Part shown: positions 1,948 through 55,509 of the stretch, one piece after another
Position numbering within the stretch: position 1 is the stretch's first letter
Layout: the number at the start of each line of letters is the position of its first letter
From: Escherichia coli
GTDB lineage: Bacteria > Pseudomonadota > Gammaproteobacteria > Enterobacterales > Enterobacteriaceae
Assembly (NCBI RefSeq): GCF_022846255.1
Contig: NZ_AP025682.1
Length of the DNA: 64,000 nt
Reading direction: 5' to 3' (one strand)
Made by a program: the position numbers and the translations under genes
The notes under the pieces: model-generated
Database searches by the model: none
What the model saw: only the letters and a program-made list of their open reading frames with translations
Told to the model about the DNA's origin: nothing

Positions 1948-2283
1948 TTATATAATCGCCATCACTTTCCAGGCGAGCCCATAGGCCAGCGCACTAAGCA
2001 GTGTTGGGATGATAATGCTGCGTGTTTTATAGAAACTGGCACCCAGTACCGCGAAGCCGACCAGTGTGGGCACGAAACGGCGTGTATCGTGCATCACTTC
2101 TGGTGCGGTAGAGACAACCAGCAGAGCGCATATCGAGGCGATGCCAATGGTGTCGAGCAAAATACCTACCGCGCCACGTTTGGTTGGGCGGGCATTACCC
2201 ACACGCAGGCGCAGCGGCAGATAGCGGAAGCAATAATTCGCCGCGCCAACCAGTAACCCAAGCAGCAGAACCTCATAGCTCAT
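1948..2283 (-). CDS. ygaH: L-valine exporter small subunit YgaH (AzlD-like, 111 aa)
   Basis: Translation recognised; overlaps the ygaZ stop by 11 nt, as expected for the ygaZH pair. Confidence 0.9.
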
Positions 2284-3010
2284 CGGGCGCTCCTTGCCAG
2301 AATGCCTGGATTAACGCAGTGAGGCAGCCACAGACAATGCCTGCCAGAATGGCGACGGGAATAGAAAATAGCGTTACGCCTGCAAGGGCACCAACTAACG
2401 CTGCGGTAACGCAAAGAGATTGTTTGCGCTGGAAAGAGGCGAGCAGGAAACTCATAAAGAGTGCCGGAAGCATAAAACCTAATGCTGCTTCAACGGCGGG
2501 ATAACCTTGCAGCAAGCCGCTGCCGGAGAATGCCCCTATTACCGTACCAAATACCCACGATGACCATGAACTGAAGGCAATGCCGATCATCCAGTTTTCG
2601 CTCCAGCGGCGATTATTGCGTACCAGTTTTGCGGTTGCGGCGGCAAAAACCTCATCCGTCAGGCCAAACGCCCACAGGGCGGTTTTCGATTTTTGCAGAC
2701 GCTGAATAATACGGCTACGCAGTGACGGGCCATACAAAACATGGCGAACATCCATTGCCATGACGGTCAGTGCAGCAACCCACAAACTACTCCCGGCTGC
2801 CAGCATCGCGGTAATGACGAACTGGCTCGCGCCTGCATAAATGATGCAGGAGAAAAAAACGCTTTCGAGAGGAGAGAATCCCAGACGGGTCGCATTCAGA
2901 CCGAACGCAAAGGCCACCGGAATATAACTAATAACAATCGGTAAACTGTCTTTGCATCCTTCCATGAAGGTCGCCGAACCAGGAGCAGGCTGTGGAGTAG
3001 GGCTTTCCAT
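2273..3010 (-). CDS. ygaZ: L-valine exporter large subunit YgaZ (AzlC family, 245 aa)
   Basis: Translation recognised; polytopic membrane protein upstream of ygaH. Confidence 0.9.
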
Positions 3011-3133
3011 AGAGTGTACGCTTAACGATTGTTAATATTATAAATAGACTGAATGAATATCTTAACCTTATCAGACTGATGGGCTTCTTAACACCCTTAT
3101 AAGTGTAAAGCCACGAAAACGGTTGCTGATTGC

Positions 3134-4318
3134 TTAATTTGCGGCTTCCTGACGATGAAAACCTCGCCACCAGACCAGTAAGTTAACCAGGGCAATCGTC
3201 GCGCCAGCCAGACACACGCCAGCCCAACCGCCATGTTGCCAGGCTGAGGCTGAAATTAGCGAACCAGCGGCACCGCCAATAAAGTAGCTGGTCATGTAAC
3301 CTGCGGTCAGGCGATTACGCGCATCAGGGTGTATTCGATAAATTACCGTCTGGTTAGTGATATGCACGCCCTGCACGGTGAGGTCCAGCACCAGGATGCC
3401 GATAATCAGCGCCAGTACGGAAGTGTGACCAAACCAGATTGCCAGCCATGAAAGTAACAGCAGCAGCAGACCGAAAGTTGTGGTGTGGTGCGATTTGCCC
3501 TTATCGGCAAAACCGCCCGCCGGACGAGCGCCCAACGCTCCGGCAGCTCCCGCAAGCCCAAACAGACCAATTACACCATCGCTGTAGTTAAAAGGTGGAG
3601 CGGCAAGCAAAAAGGCCATTGAGGTCCAGAGAATGCTGAAGTTGGCAAAGGTCAGGCAGCCCAGCAACGCGCGGGTGCGCAGGATTTTATCGCTGATAAA
3701 CATGCTGAAAACAGAACCTAGCAACTGTGGGTAGTTGAGGTGGGTTTCTGATTTCATTTGTGGCAGACCACGCCATAACGCCAGCGCCATCAGTGCCATT
3801 AATACCGAAGCGACCCAAAAGACAGTTCGCCAGCCACCGAGACTCGCCAGCAATCCGGCAACGGTCCGTGCCAGCAAGATCCCCAACAGCAGCCCGCTCA
3901 TAATGGTGCCGACCACTTTGCCGCGTTTGTCCGGTGAAGCCAGCGTCGCTGCCAGCGGAACCAGAATTTGTGCCACGACTGAGAATAAACCGGTTAATGC
4001 CGTACCGAGGAGCATCATCGCCAGCGACTGACTGCTGGCAGTGATTAACATGCCGCCTGCTGCCAGTAAGGTCATCGAGACAATCAGGCGGCGGCGTTCA
4101 AACATATCACCGAGGGGAACAAGAAACAGCAGACCTGCGGCATAGCCCAACTGCGCGGCGGTAACAATAAAGCCTGCCGAACTGGCGGAAAGGGAAAAGT
4201 TACGCGCGATGGTGTCGAGCAATGGCTGGGCGTAATAGTTACTGGCTACCGCCAGACCGGTGGCGATAGACATCAGCACGATCAGCGCCGGGCTAATCTC
4301 ATGATTAGGTTTAGTCAT
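3134..4318 (-). CDS. ygaY: MFS transporter YgaY, intact 394-aa reading frame
   Basis: Uninterrupted ORF of 394 aa with multiple hydrophobic segments; position between ygaZ and proX matches ygaY. Confidence 0.8.
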   Translation of the reverse strand: MTKPNHEISPALIVLMSIATGLAVASNYYAQPLLDTIARNFSLSASSAGFIVTAAQLGYAAGLLFLVPLGDMFERRRLIVSMTLLAAGGMLITASSQSLAMMLLGTALTGLFSVVAQILVPLAATLASPDKRGKVVGTIMSGLLLGILLARTVAGLLASLGGWRTVFWVASVLMALMALALWRGLPQMKSETHLNYPQLLGSVFSMFISDKILRTRALLGCLTFANFSILWTSMAFLLAAPPFNYSDGVIGLFGLAGAAGALGARPAGGFADKGKSHHTTTFGLLLLLLSWLAIWFGHTSVLALIIGILVLDLTVQGVHITNQTVIYRIHPDARNRLTAGYMTSYFIGGAAGSLISASAWQHGGWAGVCLAGATIALVNLLVWWRGFHRQEAAN

Positions 4319-4419
4319 TATTTTTGTTCATCAGGTGATGATTAAGCTGGAAATCAATAATAGCGGATGTTGATGAATATGGGATGAAAGATAGATTGTT
4401 GAAATGTGCGGTGTGGTTT

Positions 4420-4500
4420 GTAGGTATGATAAGACGCGCCAGCGTCGCATCAGGCATTGTGTACAGAGCGGCGGATGAGGCAAAAACGCCTTATCCGCCC
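4420..4500. repeat. REP/BIME palindromic elements in the ygaY-proX intergenic region
   Basis: GATAAGACGCGCCAGCGTCGCATCAGGC and GCGGATGAGGCAAAAACGCCTTATCCGCC resemble E. coli REP consensus units. Confidence 0.5.
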
Positions 4501-4509
4501 GAATAAAAA

Positions 4510-5502
4510 TTACTTCTGCGCTGCCAGCGCCTCATTCACCCAGCCATCGAACTGCTGCTGGTGGGCTTTGATCCAGCCATCAACGTGGCCCTGAATATCG
4601 CCTTCTGAGGCTTTGCCGTCATGCATAATGGCGTTCTGGGCGTTAATATCTGCCACTGGTAACTGCATAATGGCAAACAGTTTCGCTGCTGCCGGGTTTT
4701 TCTCGGCCCAGGCTTTGTTGGCAACGATATGCATGGTACTGACCGGGAAGCCGTAATTCGCGCCATTCGGCAGTTTGGTATCGGCATTTTTATCGCCCGG
4801 CAGTGCGGAGAACGGCACCTGCAACCAGACCACATCTTTCCCCGGTTTCAGTTCGTTACTCACCCAGTACGGCGTCCAGGTGTAGTAAAACACCGGCTTA
4901 CCCTCTTTGTAACGACTGATGGTGTCAGCCATCATCGCTGCGTAGTTCCCCTGATTATGCGTCACGGTATTGGTCAGTCCATACGCGGCAAGCTGGTGGT
5001 TGATCGCACCTTCGCAGCCCCAGCCTGGGTTACAGCCGGTTAAATCCGCTTTACCGTCGCCGTTGGTATCGAACAGTTTGGCGATCTTCGGATCTTTAAG
5101 TTGCGCGATGTTGGTAATTTTATACTGGTCGGCGGTTTTCTTATCGATCAGGTAACCCTGTGCCGCGCCGTTAACAAATACTCCTTCACGATAAAATTTC
5201 TTATCGCCACCGGCAGCTTCGTACATGTTGTCATGCAGTGGCGTCCAGTTCACTGCGGTGAAGGTTGCATCGCCGGAAGCAAGTGAGGTGTAGCCAACGT
5301 TGTAATCCACTTCGCTGGGTTTATTGACGGTATAACCTAATTTCTCCAGCGCACGACTGACCAGCAGTGTCTGGAAGGTTTCTTCGGTGATGGTGCTTTG
5401 AACTGGATTAACAGTAATGCCTTTGCCCGGCAGGTCGGCAGCAAAAGTTTGTGTAGAGATAAGCGTGGCAAACGCTGTCGCAAAAAGTACGCTATGTCGC
5501 AT
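4510..5502 (-). CDS. proX: Glycine betaine/proline ABC transporter periplasmic binding protein ProX (330 aa precursor)
   Basis: Translation recognised; start set at [10 protein letters not shown]... (signal peptide) rather than the longer ORF-track start. Confidence 0.95.
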
Positions 5503-5558
5503 TGTTATTCCTTTTTTTGGCAGGGTGATATGCCCGGCGTCACCGGGCAAGTGCAGAG

Positions 5559-22672: not shown

Positions 22673-23749
<1,077 letters not shown>

Positions 23750-23768
23750 TTACATATTGTTTTCTTAT

Positions 23769-23785
23769 TGTGATCAAAAACAACA
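23769..23785. promoter_or_regulatory. Putative cAMP-CRP site in the csiD promoter
   Basis: TGTGATCAAAAACAACA (one good TGTGA/TCACA half-site) about 120-135 bp upstream of the csiD ATG; csiD is known to be CRP- and sigmaS-dependent. Confidence 0.3.
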
Positions 23786-24178
23786 AATTAATAACAAATA
23801 ATGTGAGGGATAAGAATTGGGTTGAAAGGAAATGAATAATTAAAACAATATATTAAGTGTGCTTATACTCTTTTTCGAACTGGTGGCATTTGTTTAAATG
23901 CTATTTAAACTGCTTTTCCAGAGTTCAACTTACTGAGTTCCGTGTCGACTAATGTGAGTAAGATCAATCGCATCCAACCTATGTTACTTGATGGAATCGA
24001 TAACAATATTAATGAATATACAGATTCCGGGAAGGCTGGCTATGGGGGCAAATTATTCTCTTTCTGGCAACAGGTAAATAACAGTGACCATTTGTCGAGA
24101 AGCTGATACTAAGCTGAGGGATACTGTATATGTCTGGACTGTAATTGGATGAATTCTATTCAGGGCGGGTCAGGACCA

Positions 24179-24204
24179 ATAAAAAAGCCCGCATCAGCGG
24201 GCTT
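24179..24204 (-). terminator. ssrA intrinsic terminator
   Basis: Minus strand AAAGCCCGC-TGAT-GCGGGCTTTTTTATT, about 130 nt downstream of the tmRNA 3' CCA. Confidence 0.7.
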
Positions 24205-24332
24205 TAATGTCATAGGGAGTCGCGACTCCGTTGCGTATCCTTTTTTGTCTCCTCACCGTCTGGTCGGTGTCCTGCTGAGACTTATAACTTCCTGTTTTTG
24301 TTGGTGTAGTCCTTACACCGTCCAATCATGAT

Positions 24333-24695
24333 TGGTGGAGCTGGCGGGAGTTGAACCCGCGTCCGAAATTCCTACATCCTCGGTACTACATGCTTAGTCA
24401 GTCTTTACATTCGCTTGCCAGCTGCGGACGGACACGCCACTAACAAACTAGCCTGATTAAGTTTTAACGCTTCAACCCCAGGCAGGGCTTCCACGCGATC
24501 TCTTTTGGGTTTGACCTCTCTTGATCCCCGTCCTAAGAGCGGAGGCTAGGGAGAGAGGGCTCTAAGCAGGTTATTAAGCTGCTAAAGCGTAGTTTTCGTC
24601 GTTTGCGACTATTTTTTGCGGCTTTTTACGAGGCCAACCGCCCCTCGGCATGCACCTTGGGTTTCGCAAATCCCGTCGAATCCAGAATCAGCCCC
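24333..24695 (-). ncRNA. ssrA: tmRNA (SsrA, 363 nt)
   Basis: Minus strand runs GGGGCUGAUUCUGGAUUCGACGGG ... GGUUCAACUCCCGCCAGCUCCACCA; tag reading frame 24574-24606 encodes ANDENYALAA. Confidence 0.97.
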
Positions 24696-42430: not shown

Positions 42431-42454
42431 AGTGTTGCCTTTTTGTTATCAATA

Positions 42455-42482
42455 AAAAAGGCCCCCCGATTTGGGAGGCCTT
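42455..42482 (-). terminator. pheA attenuator (leader terminator)
   Basis: Minus strand AAGGCCTCCC-AAATC-GGGGGGCCTT followed by TTTTTTATT, between pheL and pheA. Confidence 0.8.
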
Positions 42483-42528
42483 ATTGTTCGTCTTCGCATT
42501 CTGTTTCACACGACGAAACGCCTCCCAT

Positions 42529-42576
42529 TCAGGGGAAGGTAAAAAAGAATGCGAAGAAAAACGGTGTGTGTTTCAT
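42529..42576 (-). CDS. pheL: pheA leader peptide PheL (15 aa, 7 Phe codons)
   Basis: Minus strand ATG AAA CAC ACA CCG TTT TTC TTC GCA TTC TTT TTT ACC TTC CCC TGA = [15 protein letters not shown]. Confidence 0.85.
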   Translation of the reverse strand: [15 protein letters not shown]

Positions 42577-42679
42577 GTTTGTTTCCTTAAGTGACTTTAG
42601 TACAGTACCCGTACTGTTTTCACGCTGTCAACAAAAAACGCGCCCGAAGGCGCGTTGGCGATACACTCAATATAAAGGA

Positions 42680-47310: not shown

Positions 47311-47373
47311 CCTAAAGAATCAAGACGATCCGGTACGCGTGATTTTCTTTTCACATTAATCTGGTCAATAACC

Positions 47374-47401
47374 TTGAATAATTGAGGGATGACCTCATTT
47401 A
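47374..47401 (+). promoter_or_regulatory. clpB sigma32 heat-shock promoter
   Basis: CTTGAA (47374-47379), 13-bp spacer, CCTCATTTA (47393-47401), about 40 bp upstream of the clpB ATG. Confidence 0.65.
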
Positions 47402-47439
47402 ATCTCCAGTAGCAACTTTGATCCGTTATGGGAGGAGTT

Positions 47440-50013
47440 ATGCGTCTGGATCGTCTTACTAATAAATTCCAGCTTGCTCTTGCCGATGCCCAATCACTTG
47501 CACTCGGGCACGACAACCAATTCATCGAACCACTTCATTTAATGAGCGCCCTGCTGAATCAGGAAGGGGGTTCGGTTAGTCCTTTATTAACATCCGCTGG
47601 CATAAATGCTGGCCAGTTGCGCACAGATATCAATCAGGCATTAAATCGTTTACCGCAGGTTGAAGGTACTGGTGGTGATGTCCAGCCATCACAGGATCTG
47701 GTGCGCGTTCTTAATCTTTGCGACAAGCTGGCGCAAAAACGTGGTGATAACTTTATCTCGTCAGAACTGTTCGTTCTGGCGGCACTTGAGTCTCGCGGCA
47801 CGCTGGCCGACATCCTGAAAGCAGCAGGGGCGACCACCGCCAACATTACTCAAGCGATTGAACAAATGCGTGGAGGTGAAAGCGTGAACGATCAAGGTGC
47901 TGAAGACCAACGTCAGGCTTTGAAAAAATATACCATCGACCTTACCGAACGAGCCGAACAAGGCAAACTCGATCCGGTGATTGGTCGTGATGAAGAAATT
48001 CGCCGTACCATTCAGGTGCTGCAACGTCGTACTAAAAATAACCCGGTATTGATTGGTGAACCCGGCGTCGGTAAAACTGCCATCGTTGAAGGTCTGGCGC
48101 AGCGTATTATCAACGGCGAAGTGCCCGAAGGGTTGAAAGGCCGCCGCGTACTGGCGCTGGATATGGGCGCGCTGGTGGCTGGGGCGAAATATCGCGGTGA
48201 GTTTGAAGAACGTTTAAAAGGCGTACTTAACGATCTTGCTAAACAGGAAGGCAACGTCATCCTGTTTATCGACGAATTACATACCATGGTCGGCGCGGGT
48301 AAAGCCGATGGCGCAATGGACGCCGGAAACATGCTGAAACCTGCTCTGGCGCGTGGTGAATTGCACTGCGTAGGTGCCACGACGCTTGACGAATATCGCC
48401 AGTACATCGAAAAAGATGCTGCGCTGGAACGTCGTTTCCAGAAAGTGTTTGTTGCCGAGCCTTCTGTTGAAGATACCATTGCTATTCTGCGTGGCCTGAA
48501 AGAACGTTATGAGCTGCACCACCATGTGCAAATTACTGACCCGGCAATTGTTGCAGCGGCGACGTTGTCTCATCGCTACATTGCTGACCGTCAGCTGCCG
48601 GATAAAGCCATCGACCTGATCGATGAAGCAGCATCCAGCATTCGTATGCAGATTGACTCAAAACCAGAAGAACTCGACCGACTCGATCGTCGTATCATCC
48701 AGCTCAAACTGGAACAACAGGCGTTAATGAAAGAGTCTGATGAAGCCAGTAAAAAACGCCTGGATATGCTCAACGAAGAACTGAGCGACAAAGAACGTCA
48801 GTACTCCGAGTTAGAAGAAGAGTGGAAAGCAGAGAAAGCCTCGCTTTCTGGTACGCAGACCATTAAAGCGGAACTGGAACAGGCGAAAATCGCTATTGAA
48901 CAGGCTCGCCGTGTGGGTGACCTGGCGAGGATGTCTGAACTGCAATACGGCAAAATCCCGGAACTGGAAAAGCAACTGGAAGCCGCAACGCAGCTCGAAG
49001 GCAAAACTATGCGTCTGTTGCGTAATAAAGTGACCGATGCCGAAATTGCTGAAGTGCTGGCGCGTTGGACGGGAATTCCGGTTTCTCGCATGATGGAAAG
49101 CGAGCGCGAAAAACTGCTGCGTATGGAGCAAGAACTGCACCATCGCGTTATTGGTCAGAACGAAGCGGTTGATGCGGTATCTAACGCTATTCGTCGTAGC
49201 CGTGCGGGGCTGGCGGATCCAAATCGCCCGATTGGTTCATTCCTGTTTCTCGGCCCAACGGGTGTGGGGAAAACAGAGCTTTGTAAGGCGCTGGCGAACT
49301 TTATGTTTGATAGCGACGAGGCGATGGTCCGTATCGATATGTCCGAGTTTATGGAGAAACACTCGGTGTCTCGTCTGGTTGGTGCGCCTCCGGGATATGT
49401 TGGTTATGAAGAAGGTGGCTATCTGACCGAAGCGGTGCGTCGTCGTCCGTATTCCGTCATCCTGCTGGATGAAGTGGAAAAAGCGCATCCGGATGTCTTC
49501 AACATTCTGTTGCAGGTACTGGATGATGGGCGTCTGACTGACGGGCAGGGGAGAACGGTCGACTTCCGTAATACGGTCGTCATTATGACCTCTAACCTCG
49601 GTTCCGATCTGATTCAGGAACGTTTTGGTGAACTGGATTATGCGCACATGAAAGAGCTGGTGCTCGGTGTGGTAAGCCATAACTTCCGTCCGGAATTCAT
49701 TAACCGTATCGATGAAGTCGTCGTCTTCCATCCGCTGGGTGAACAACACATTGCGTCGATTGCGCAGATTCAGTTGAAACGTCTGTACAAACGTCTGGAA
49801 GAACGTGGTTATGAAATCCACATTTCTGACGAGGCGCTGAAACTGCTGAGCGAGAACGGTTACGATCCGGTCTATGGTGCACGTCCTCTGAAACGTGCTA
49901 TCCAGCAGCAGATCGAAAACCCGCTGGCACAGCAAATACTGTCTGGTGAATTGGTTCCGGGTAAAGTTATTCGCCTGGAAGTTAATGAAGACCGGATCGT
50001 CGCCGTCCAGTAA
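47440..50013 (+). CDS. clpB: Disaggregase chaperone ClpB (857 aa)
   Basis: Two AAA+ modules (GEPGVGKT and GPTGVGKT Walker A motifs); start at [10 protein letters not shown] with GGAGG 4 nt upstream. Confidence 0.97.
47884..50013 (+). other. clpB: Internal GTG start (Val149) for the N-terminally truncated ClpB isoform
   Basis: GGAGGTGA at 47872-47879 lies 4 nt before GTG 47884-47886 within clpB; a short ClpB-80 isoform starting here is established for E. coli. Confidence 0.5.
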
Positions 50014-50452: not shown

Positions 50453-51994
<1,542 letters not shown>

Positions 51995-52079
51995 CCTTAA
52001 AGAAGCGTACTTTGCAGTGCTCACACAGATTGTCTGATAGAAAGTGAAAAGCAAGGCGTCTTGCGAAGCAGACTGATAC

Positions 52080-52155
52080 GTCCCCTTCGTCTAGAGGCCC
52101 AGGACACCGCCCTTTCACGGCGGTAACAGGGGTTCGAATCCCCTAGGGGACGCCA
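52080..52155 (+). tRNA. gltW: tRNA-Glu (anticodon UUC) in the 16S-23S spacer
   Basis: GTCCCCTTCGTCTAGAGGCCCAGGACACCGCCCTTTCACGGCGGTAACAGGGGTTCGAATCCCCTAGGGGACGCCA, 76 nt cloverleaf. Confidence 0.97.
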
Positions 52156-52387
52156 AGCGTTAACTGATGAGGTCAAACCTCCCAGGGGACGCCACTTGCT
52201 GGTTTGTGAGTGAAAGTCACCTGCCTTAATATCTCAAAACTCATCTTCGGGTGATGTTTGAGATATTTGCTCTTTAAAAATCTGGATCAAGCTGAAAATT
52301 GAAACACTGAACAACGAGAGTTGTTCGTGAGTCTCTCAAATTTTCGCAACACGATGATGAATCGCAAGAAACATCTTCGGGTTGTGA

Positions 52388-55291
<2,904 letters not shown>

Positions 55292-55389
55292 ACAACGCCG
55301 AAGATGTTTTGGCGGATAGAGAGAAGATTTTCAGCCTGATACAGATTAAATCGACAGGTCATAACGAGACGTGTTGATAAAACAGAATT

Positions 55390-55509
55390 TGCCTGGCGGC
55401 CGTAGCGCGGTGGTCCCACCTGACCCCATGCCGAACTCAGAAGTGAAACGCCGTAGCGCCGATGGTAGTGTGGGGTCTCCCCATGCGAGAGTAGGGAACT
55501 GCCAGGCAT
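55390..55509 (+). rRNA. rrfG: 5S ribosomal RNA (120 nt)
   Basis: TGCCTGGCGGCCGTAGCGCGGTGGTCCCACCTGACC ... GGGAACTGCCAGGCAT. Confidence 0.98.

What the first reader, a model, noticed from the sequence alone, without database searches (positions are those of the whole stretch)
3134..4318. ygaY is an intact 394-aa MFS transporter gene in this strain
The window has a single uninterrupted ORF with a plausible start and about 12 hydrophobic segments between ygaZ and proX. I recall ygaY being annotated as an interrupted pseudogene in K-12 MG1655, so this strain appears to retain the functional ancestral allele of an uncharacterised transporter.
Basis: partly seen in the sequence, partly recalled or inferred. 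Interest (0 to 1): 0.3.

Follow-up and report, generated by a model that had tools for sequence, protein, structure and literature searches.

The report
Intact wild-type ygaY transporter gene
This strain carries the normal, uninterrupted form of the membrane-transporter gene ygaY that about 93% of sequenced E. coli have; laboratory K-12 strains are the exception, having lost 7 bases, so the finding is correct but ordinary.

Summary
Window 3134-4318 (minus strand) is one uninterrupted 394-codon ORF between ygaZ and proX. It is a major-facilitator (MFS) transporter: Pfam MFS_1 E=2.4e-41, and a 12-helix AlphaFold model with pLDDT 95.4. In MG1655, ygaY (b2681) is annotated as a 1178-nt pseudogene. 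The lesion is a 7-bp deletion of one unit of a GGCGGCA-GGCGGCA tandem repeat (gene nt 255-268, window 4051-4064). It leaves an 88-residue stump.

The intact allele is the species norm, not a special retention. Of 5405 complete E. coli genomes that match, 354 carry the K-12 junction; every one sampled was a K-12-type or laboratory strain. The other 5051 have the 7 bp. The exact protein is already in RefSeq (WP_137501106.1). Full-length 394-aa orthologues occur in E. fergusonii, E. marmotae, E. albertii and Citrobacter, in Citrobacter with the same gene order. dN/dS against BL21 is about 0.03, so the gene is under purifying selection.

The substrate is unknown. YgaY is filed in the YnfM family (TCDB 2.A.1.36.3), shares 26% identity with YnfM, and is closest in fold to DHA1 exporters. 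A proton-coupled small-metabolite exporter is the best guess. Already known; low interest.

The parts
3134..4318 (-). ygaY coding sequence, 394 codons plus a TAA stop. It encodes an intact 12-TM MFS transporter.
   Evidence: ORF listing; Pfam MFS_1 at 142.3 bits against a cut-off of 33.4; AlphaFold pLDDT 95.4 with 12 TM helices; exact protein is WP_137501106.1 / BDH32275.1.
4051..4064 (-). Imperfect 7-bp tandem repeat GGCAGCA-GGCGGCA (gene nt 255-268, codons 85-90, in TM3). It is a perfect GGCGGCA x2 in BL21 and PM06121. K-12 has lost one unit, which shifts the frame and gives ...A86 A87 C88 stop.
   Evidence: Pairwise alignments of the window, BL21, PM06121 and K-12 genes.
4099..4113 (-). MFS motif-A-like loop between TM2 and TM3, G70-D71-M-F-E-R75-R76-R77 (approximate coordinates for codons 69-73 onwards).
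   Evidence: Conservation in the 102-sequence family alignment: G70 93/102, D71 100/102, R75 84/102.
3350..3385 (-). TM10 polar cluster D312, Q316, H319, N322, Q323, conserved across the YgaY subfamily. It is a candidate proton- or substrate-binding site.
   Evidence: Column counts: D312 89/102, Q316 88/102, N322 89/102, Q323 89/102; helix 301-329 in the model.
4319..4509 (-). proX-ygaY spacer of 191 bp. It holds a REP-type element (naRNA4 match at 4423-4500) and whatever promoter ygaY has. No consensus sigma-70 site or Shine-Dalgarno sequence was found.
   Evidence: Rfam RF02564 at 61.6 bits; promoter scan found no minus-strand site here; sequence read.
3011..3133 (-). ygaY-ygaZ spacer of 123 bp with a promoter-like site (TTAAGA-17-TATAAT, 3065-3037). 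ygaZH probably has its own promoter.
   Evidence: Promoter scan, 10 of 12 matches. This is a consensus match only.

Best explanation
Window 3134-4318 (minus strand) is the ordinary wild-type allele of ygaY. It encodes a 394-residue, 12-helix MFS secondary transporter of the YnfM family (TCDB 2.A.1.36.3). The gene sits in the conserved enterobacterial block nrdEF-proVWX-ygaY-ygaZH-emrR-emrAB. K-12 laboratory strains are the exception. Slippage in a GGCGGCA-GGCGGCA tandem repeat deleted 7 bp, which shifts the frame after codon 87 and truncates the protein inside TM3. In this strain the protein keeps every residue conserved across the family: motif-A G70/D71/R75-77, R151 in TM5, and D312/Q316/N322/Q323 in TM10. 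It is therefore most likely active. The steps shown here are the intact ORF, the K-12 lesion, the population frequency, purifying selection and the MFS fold. The steps inferred are as follows. The protein works by rocker-switch alternating access driven by the proton gradient. It most probably exports a small polar or anionic metabolite. This rests on analogy with its paralogue YnfM, a CCCP-sensitive glutarate exporter, and on fold similarity to the DHA1 exporters SotB, MdfA and NorA. The substrate is unknown.
For: Intact ORF. Pfam MFS_1 E=2.4e-41. AlphaFold pLDDT 95.4 and pTM 0.93 with 12 TM helices. The best solved fold matches are SotB, MdfA and NorA at TM-score 0.80-0.85. K-12 DHB4 is annotated 'frameshifted' and MG1655 b2681 is annotated as a pseudogene, both 1178 nt. 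The 7-bp deletion was located by alignment. The K-12 junction 80-mer is at least 99% identical in 354 of 5405 genomes; the other 5051 align over 87 nt and so have the 7 bp. In a systematic sample of 60 genomes, 55 had exactly 1185 nt, 4 were K-12-type at 1178 nt, and 1 had a large deletion. dN/dS is 0.028 against BL21 and 0.058 against PM06121. The exact protein is in RefSeq and GenBank. 394-aa orthologues occur at 97% identity in E. fergusonii and E. marmotae, 95% in E. albertii and 92-93% in Citrobacter, with identical synteny in Citrobacter. TCDB files YgaY (P76628) as 2.A.1.36.3, function unknown (PMC5417439). BLASTP against YnfM gives 26% identity and E=7e-21 over the full length. YnfM is a proton-dependent glutarate exporter (PMC12622518).
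Against: There is no direct evidence of expression or activity in this strain. No consensus promoter or Shine-Dalgarno sequence lies upstream. No NCBIfam family model reaches its cut-off, so no substrate class can be assigned. The DHA antiporter motif C (G-x3-G-P-x2-G-G in TM5) is not visible in TM5 of YgaY on inspection of the sequence. The TM10 polar cluster D312/Q316/N322/Q323 is not shared with YnfM (D312 aligns to Ser), so both the substrate and the direction of transport may differ. In BL21(DE3), where ygaY is intact, deleting ynfM alone abolished glutarate export. YgaY therefore does not back up that activity under those conditions.
Confidence: 0.9

Rival explanations
1. The ORF is intact but cryptic: silent or barely expressed, for example under H-NS/StpA silencing, and contributing nothing in practice. 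On this view its loss in K-12 was neutral, and its intactness here is just a lack of time to decay.
For: No consensus promoter or Shine-Dalgarno sequence lies upstream. In K-12, ygaY transcripts are low, and an H-NS-mediated bridge to ygaY is reported (bioRxiv 10.1101/2023.07.10.548347). The K-12 deletion mutant is used as a neutral control and as an integration site. Independent lesions exist: a large deletion in PCP06021 and truncated variants in databases.
Against: dN/dS is about 0.03 between alleles that differ at 12% of synonymous sites. Protein identity to Citrobacter is 92-93%, with conserved length and synteny. 5413 of 5426 genomes keep at least 80% of the gene. A gene without function would not be maintained this way.
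Confidence: 0.08
2. YgaY is an importer (a solute:H+ symporter) rather than an exporter.
For: The top NCBIfam partial hit is the aromatic acid/H+ symporter subfamily TIGR00895, at E=4e-22 but far below its cut-off. Antiporter motif C is absent from TM5 on inspection. A membrane-embedded R151 conserved in 101/102 sequences, together with D312, would suit an anion:H+ symporter equally well.
Against: The closest solved folds are all exporters: SotB, MdfA and NorA. The only characterised member of TCDB family 2.A.1.36 is an exporter. The flanking genes ygaZH and emrAB are exporters, but this is only circumstantial.
Confidence: 0.3

Closest known systems
E. coli YgaY (UniProt P76628; TCDB 2.A.1.36.3; b2681, a pseudogene in K-12)
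   Same: Same locus and same gene. With the 7 bp restored, the K-12 product differs from the window protein at only 3 residues: I8L, L103I and S159N. The window gene is 99.8% identical in nucleotides to the annotated intact gene of EPEC E2348/69, WP_000165669.1.
   Different: K-12 lacks 7 bp (gene nt 255-261) and makes at most an 88-residue fragment. The window allele is complete.
E. coli YnfM (b1596; TCDB 2.A.1.36.1), a proton-dependent glutarate/dicarboxylate exporter
   Same: Full-length homology at 26% identity, E=7e-21. Same TCDB family (PMC5417439). 12-TM MFS. R151 of YgaY aligns with an Arg in YnfM TM5.
   Different: The TM10 D312/Q316/N322/Q323 cluster of the YgaY subfamily is not present in YnfM. 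There is no adjacent LysR regulator such as ynfL. YgaY does not replace YnfM for glutarate export in BL21(DE3).
DHA1 drug:H+ antiporters SotB, MdfA and NorA (solved structures 6kkk, 4zp0, 8ttf)
   Same: Best structural matches, with TM-score 0.80-0.85 over about 385 columns. 12-TM fold in a 6+6 arrangement.
   Different: Only 15-18% identity. The NCBIfam DHA1 models (Bcr/CflA, EmrD) score far below their cut-offs. Motif C is not evident, and the acidic TM1 residues of MdfA are not conserved (D35 in only 20/102).

Membership tests
Major facilitator superfamily (Pfam PF07690 MFS_1) | Profile match above Pfam's gathering score | tested here: met
   142.3 bits against a cut-off of 33.4, E=2.4e-41, two stretches.
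Major facilitator superfamily (Pfam PF07690 MFS_1) | Twelve transmembrane helices as two six-helix bundles joined by a cytoplasmic loop | tested here: met
   AlphaFold model with pLDDT 95.4; helices 10-40, 45-71, 75-94, 99-126, 129-161, 163-184, loop helix 196-209, then 211-239, 247-272, 276-298, 301-329 and 331-393 (TM11+12 merged by DSSP). Hydropathy agrees. TM-score 0.84 to SotB and MdfA.
Major facilitator superfamily (Pfam PF07690 MFS_1) | Motif A (G-x3-D-R/K-x-G-R-R/K) in the TM2-TM3 loop | tested here: inconclusive
   The loop reads P68-L-G70-D71-M-F-E-R75-R76-R77. The Gly-Asp and basic cluster are present and conserved (G70 93/102, D71 100/102, R75 84/102), but the spacing is not the textbook one. 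The motif consensus is quoted from memory.
YnfM (acriflavin-sensitivity) family, TCDB 2.A.1.36 | Significant full-length sequence similarity to YnfM and listing in TCDB | tested here: met
   BLASTP 26% identity, E=7e-21, residues 1-390 against 20-414. YgaY P76628 is listed as 2.A.1.36.3 in PMC5417439.
YnfM (acriflavin-sensitivity) family, TCDB 2.A.1.36 | Transport activity (dicarboxylate/glutarate efflux, proton dependence) | not testable with these tools
   Only literature on YnfM itself is available. It suggests indirectly that YgaY does not export glutarate in BL21(DE3).
DHA1 drug:H+ antiporters (TCDB 2.A.1.2) | Family-specific profile match above cut-off (Bcr/CflA TIGR00710, EmrD NF008654 and others) | tested here: not met
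   49.7 bits against 200.9 for TIGR00710, and 36.5 against 479 for EmrD. The same pattern holds across 102 relatives.
DHA1 drug:H+ antiporters (TCDB 2.A.1.2) | Antiporter motif C (G-x3-G-P-x2-G-G) in TM5 | tested here: not met
   TM5 reads G137-TIMS-G142-LLL-G146-ILLARTVAGLL, with no Gly-Pro (sequence). The motif consensus is recalled from memory.
E. coli ygaY orthologue group | Position between proX and ygaZ, same strand, and more than 95% nucleotide identity to the annotated E. coli gene | tested here: met
   5413 of 5426 genomes match at least 80% of the gene at 95-99.8% identity, all under the 'MFS transporter' CDS between proX and ygaZ.

The most novel reading that the evidence does not exclude
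YgaY may be a physiologically relevant exporter whose role is tied to its conserved position between the osmoprotectant importer proVWX and the valine exporter ygaZH. One possibility is release of a compatible solute or an amino-acid-related metabolite after read-through from proU during osmotic shock. Such a role would have gone unnoticed because nearly all E. coli physiology is done in K-12, which is a natural null. My evidence does not exclude this, but it supports it only by synteny and by reported read-through transcription in K-12.
Probability: 0.07. Interest if true: 0.4.

Novelty: already known. Interest (0 to 1): 0.06.

Why it matters
It matters little for discovery. The intact gene is the species norm, the exact protein is already in RefSeq, and the K-12 pseudogene status is already annotated. 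The practical point is a reminder that K-12 is a natural ygaY null, caused by a 7-bp repeat-slippage deletion. Phenotype screens, transporter-knockout libraries and 'neutral site' integrations done in K-12 therefore say nothing about YgaY. Any search for its substrate must use a non-K-12 strain such as BL21 or E2348/69, or a repaired allele.

Tried and rejected
- NCBIfam scans of the protein and of 102 relatives gave no family above its cut-off, so no substrate class could be assigned.
- A sequence search of the PDB found only weak MFS hits: GlcP at E=7.6e-8 and SotB at about 7e-4.
- Gene neighbourhoods of distant homologues at 49-57% identity are unrelated to each other and to the E. coli context, so they give no functional clue.
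- The promoter and terminator scan found no minus-strand promoter in the proX-ygaY spacer and no terminator-like site.
- I considered whether the window allele is unusually divergent, because the best hit over 1.5 kb was only 99.0%. I rejected this: the coding sequence alone is 99.8% identical to E2348/69, and the divergence lies in the REP-bearing spacer.
- I considered sequencing or assembly error as the cause of the intact frame. I rejected this because more than 5000 independent genomes share the same frame.
- I did not establish that all 354 genomes with the K-12 junction belong to the K-12 lineage. The 8 seen by name or size do look like K-12 derivatives.

Full report
**Observation**

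The window holds one uninterrupted ORF at 3134-4318 on the minus strand. It starts with ATG, ends with TAA and is 394 codons long (sequence). Downstream of it on the same strand is ygaZ (2273-3010), followed by ygaH, emrR and emrA. Upstream lies proX (ORF 4510-5550), followed by proW and proV. NCBI's PGAP pipeline calls the same 1185-nt CDS with the same start in three other E. coli genomes: PM06121, BL21 and E2348/69.

**What the protein is**

- Pfam MFS_1 matches at 142.3 bits against a gathering score of 33.4 (E=2.4e-41).
- A Kyte-Doolittle scan shows ten strong and two weaker (Gly/Ala-rich) hydrophobic segments.
- I aligned 101 full-length relatives at 34-56% identity, taken from a search of 1.84 billion cluster representatives. 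That search found 1143 representatives at E<=1e-30.
- AlphaFold on this alignment gave a very confident model (pLDDT 95.4, pTM 0.93). It has twelve transmembrane helices in a 6+6 arrangement plus a short helix in the central loop.
- The nearest solved structures are the DHA1-type exporters SotB, MdfA and NorA, at TM-score 0.80-0.85 and 15-18% identity.

**The K-12 lesion**

In MG1655 (NC_000913.3) it is 'pseudogene ygaY b2681' at 2808316-2809493, also 1178 nt.

Global alignment of the window, BL21, PM06121 and K-12 genes shows a single indel. K-12 lacks 7 bp at gene nt 255-261, which is window 4058-4064.

The site is a tandem 7-mer. BL21 and PM06121 read GGCGGCA-GGCGGCA. The window reads GGCAGCA-GGCGGCA, which is a synonymous change. 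K-12 keeps a single GGCGGCA. The simplest reading is loss of one repeat unit by replication slippage; this is an inference.

The K-12 frame then reads ...L85 A86 A87 C88 stop, which ends the product inside TM3. The rest of the protein survives only in another frame. With the 7 bp restored, the K-12 product differs from the window protein at three residues: I8L, L103I and S159N.

**How common each state is**

- An 80-nt query centred on the K-12 junction matched 5405 genomes. In 354 of them the match was at least 99% identical. The remaining 5051 matched at 87-92% identity over 87 nt of the record, so they carry the extra 7 bp.
- A systematic 'spread' sample of 60 genomes was taken with the gene as query. 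It gave 55 genes of exactly 1185 nt, four of 1178 nt, and one with most of the gene deleted.
- The four 1178-nt genes came from KLY, gb37, K194T1-1017 and an MG1655 substrain, all K-12-type or laboratory strains.
- The deleted one was PCP06021, where the deletion runs from ygaY nt ~159 into ygaH.
- 5413 of 5426 genomes hold at least 80% of the gene.

The intact allele is therefore the norm, at roughly 93% of genomes. The K-12 deletion accounts for nearly all the rest. I could not check every one of the 354 genomes, but all eight that I saw by name look like K-12 derivatives.

**Ancestry and selection**

The exact window protein is already deposited as WP_137501106.1, BDH32275.1 and GDA31184.1, annotated 'MFS transporter [Escherichia coli]'. 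Its 90%-identity cluster has 3984 members.

Full-length 394-aa orthologues occur at these identities:

| Organism | Identity to the window protein |
|---|---|
| Shigella | 98-99% |
| E. fergusonii | 97% |
| E. marmotae | 97% |
| E. albertii | 95% |
| Citrobacter | 92-93% |

In Citrobacter the gene order is identical: nrdEF-proVWX-ygaY-ygaZH-emrR-emrAB. The intact state is therefore ancestral.

The Nei-Gojobori comparison of the window with BL21 gives 35 synonymous and 3 non-synonymous differences (dS 0.122, dN 0.0035, dN/dS 0.028). Against PM06121, dN/dS is 0.058. This is strong purifying selection, and it argues that the gene is used even though no function is known.

**Mechanism: what is shown and what is inferred**

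The following are shown:
- An MFS fold.
- An intact motif-A-like loop: G70 in 93/102 relatives, D71 in 100/102, R75 in 84/102.
- A near-invariant membrane-embedded arginine in TM5: R151 in 101/102.
- A conserved polar cluster in TM10: D312 in 89/102, Q316 in 88/102, N322 in 89/102 and Q323 in 89/102.

The following are inferred:
- Rocker-switch alternating access powered by the proton gradient.
- D312 as the likely protonation site and R151 as a likely ligand for an anionic or polar substrate.

The direction of transport is uncertain. Three points favour export:
- The closest solved folds are exporters.
- TCDB places YgaY (P76628) in family 2.A.1.36 as 2.A.1.36.3, with 'unknown' substrate (PMC5417439).
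- The family's named member, YnfM, is a CCCP-sensitive glutarate exporter in E. coli BL21(DE3) and a glutarate exporter in Corynebacterium (PMC12622518).

YgaY and YnfM align over their full lengths at 26% identity, E=7e-21.

Four points count against a simple transfer of function from YnfM:
- The TM10 cluster is not shared with YnfM; D312 aligns with a serine.
- The DHA antiporter motif C is not visible in TM5.
- No NCBIfam model reaches its cut-off for the protein or for its 101 relatives.
- BL21(DE3) has an intact ygaY, yet deleting ynfM alone abolished glutarate export there.

I therefore put 'proton-coupled exporter of a small polar or anionic metabolite other than glutarate' at roughly even odds. 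An importer role is the main alternative.

**Expression**

I found no consensus sigma-70 promoter or Shine-Dalgarno sequence in the 191-bp proX-ygaY spacer. Part of that spacer is a REP-type element (Rfam naRNA4, 4423-4500, 61.6 bits).

In K-12, ygaY transcripts are detectable. They rise after hyperosmotic shock, especially without StpA, apparently by read-through from proX. [quoted passage not shown] Whether this bears on YgaY's role in strains with an intact gene is unknown.

In K-12 work, ygaY is treated as a neutral pseudogene. It serves as a control deletion (bioRxiv 10.1101/072470) and as an integration site (PMC11566304).

**Verdict**

The observation and the interpretation are both correct. 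However, the finding is already known and is the normal condition of the species. Its only value is a caution that K-12 is a natural ygaY null. Interest 0.06; novelty 'already known'.

Noticed in passing
window 4423-4500 (minus strand), within the proX-ygaY spacer 4319-4509: A REP-type element matches Rfam naRNA4 (RF02564, 61.6 bits against a gathering score of 59.5). The spacer length varies between strains: 191 bp here and in K-12, 291 bp in BL21, 448 bp in E2348/69. This is why the 1.5-kb query reached only 99.0% best identity while the gene alone reaches 99.8%.
   Followed up: partly
window 22673-24695: The tmRNA gene ssrA (24333-24695, minus strand) lies only about 0.7 kb from the csiD-like ORF (22673-23650). 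From my memory of the K-12 map, about 35 kb including the CP4-57 prophage sits between these genes in K-12. That island appears to be absent in this strain.
   Followed up: no
L007 (E. coli PCP06021, NZ_CM129877.1) 4001-4463: An independent natural lesion. A deletion removes ygaY from about nt 159 through all of ygaZ into the start of ygaH. PGAP annotates the remnant as 'incomplete; missing C-terminus'.
   Followed up: partly
proteins P0135-P0137, P0147, P0161, P0246, P0262, P0266: These are truncated or frameshifted YgaY-like proteins of 175-323 aa, 90-99% identical to part of the query. They point to further independent ygaY lesions, or to assembly errors, in public E. coli data.
   Followed up: no
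window 50453-55507 (plus strand): A complete rRNA operon (16S, one spacer tRNA at 52080-52152, 23S, 5S) lies downstream of the clpB-sized ORF at 47428-50013. Also present are a Phe leader (42452-42577, minus strand) and a RyfD sRNA match (47321-47459).
   Followed up: no
window 3037-3065 (minus strand): A promoter-like site (TTAAGA-17-TATAAT, 10 of 12 matches) lies in the ygaY-ygaZ spacer. It suggests that ygaZH is transcribed independently of ygaY.
   Followed up: no
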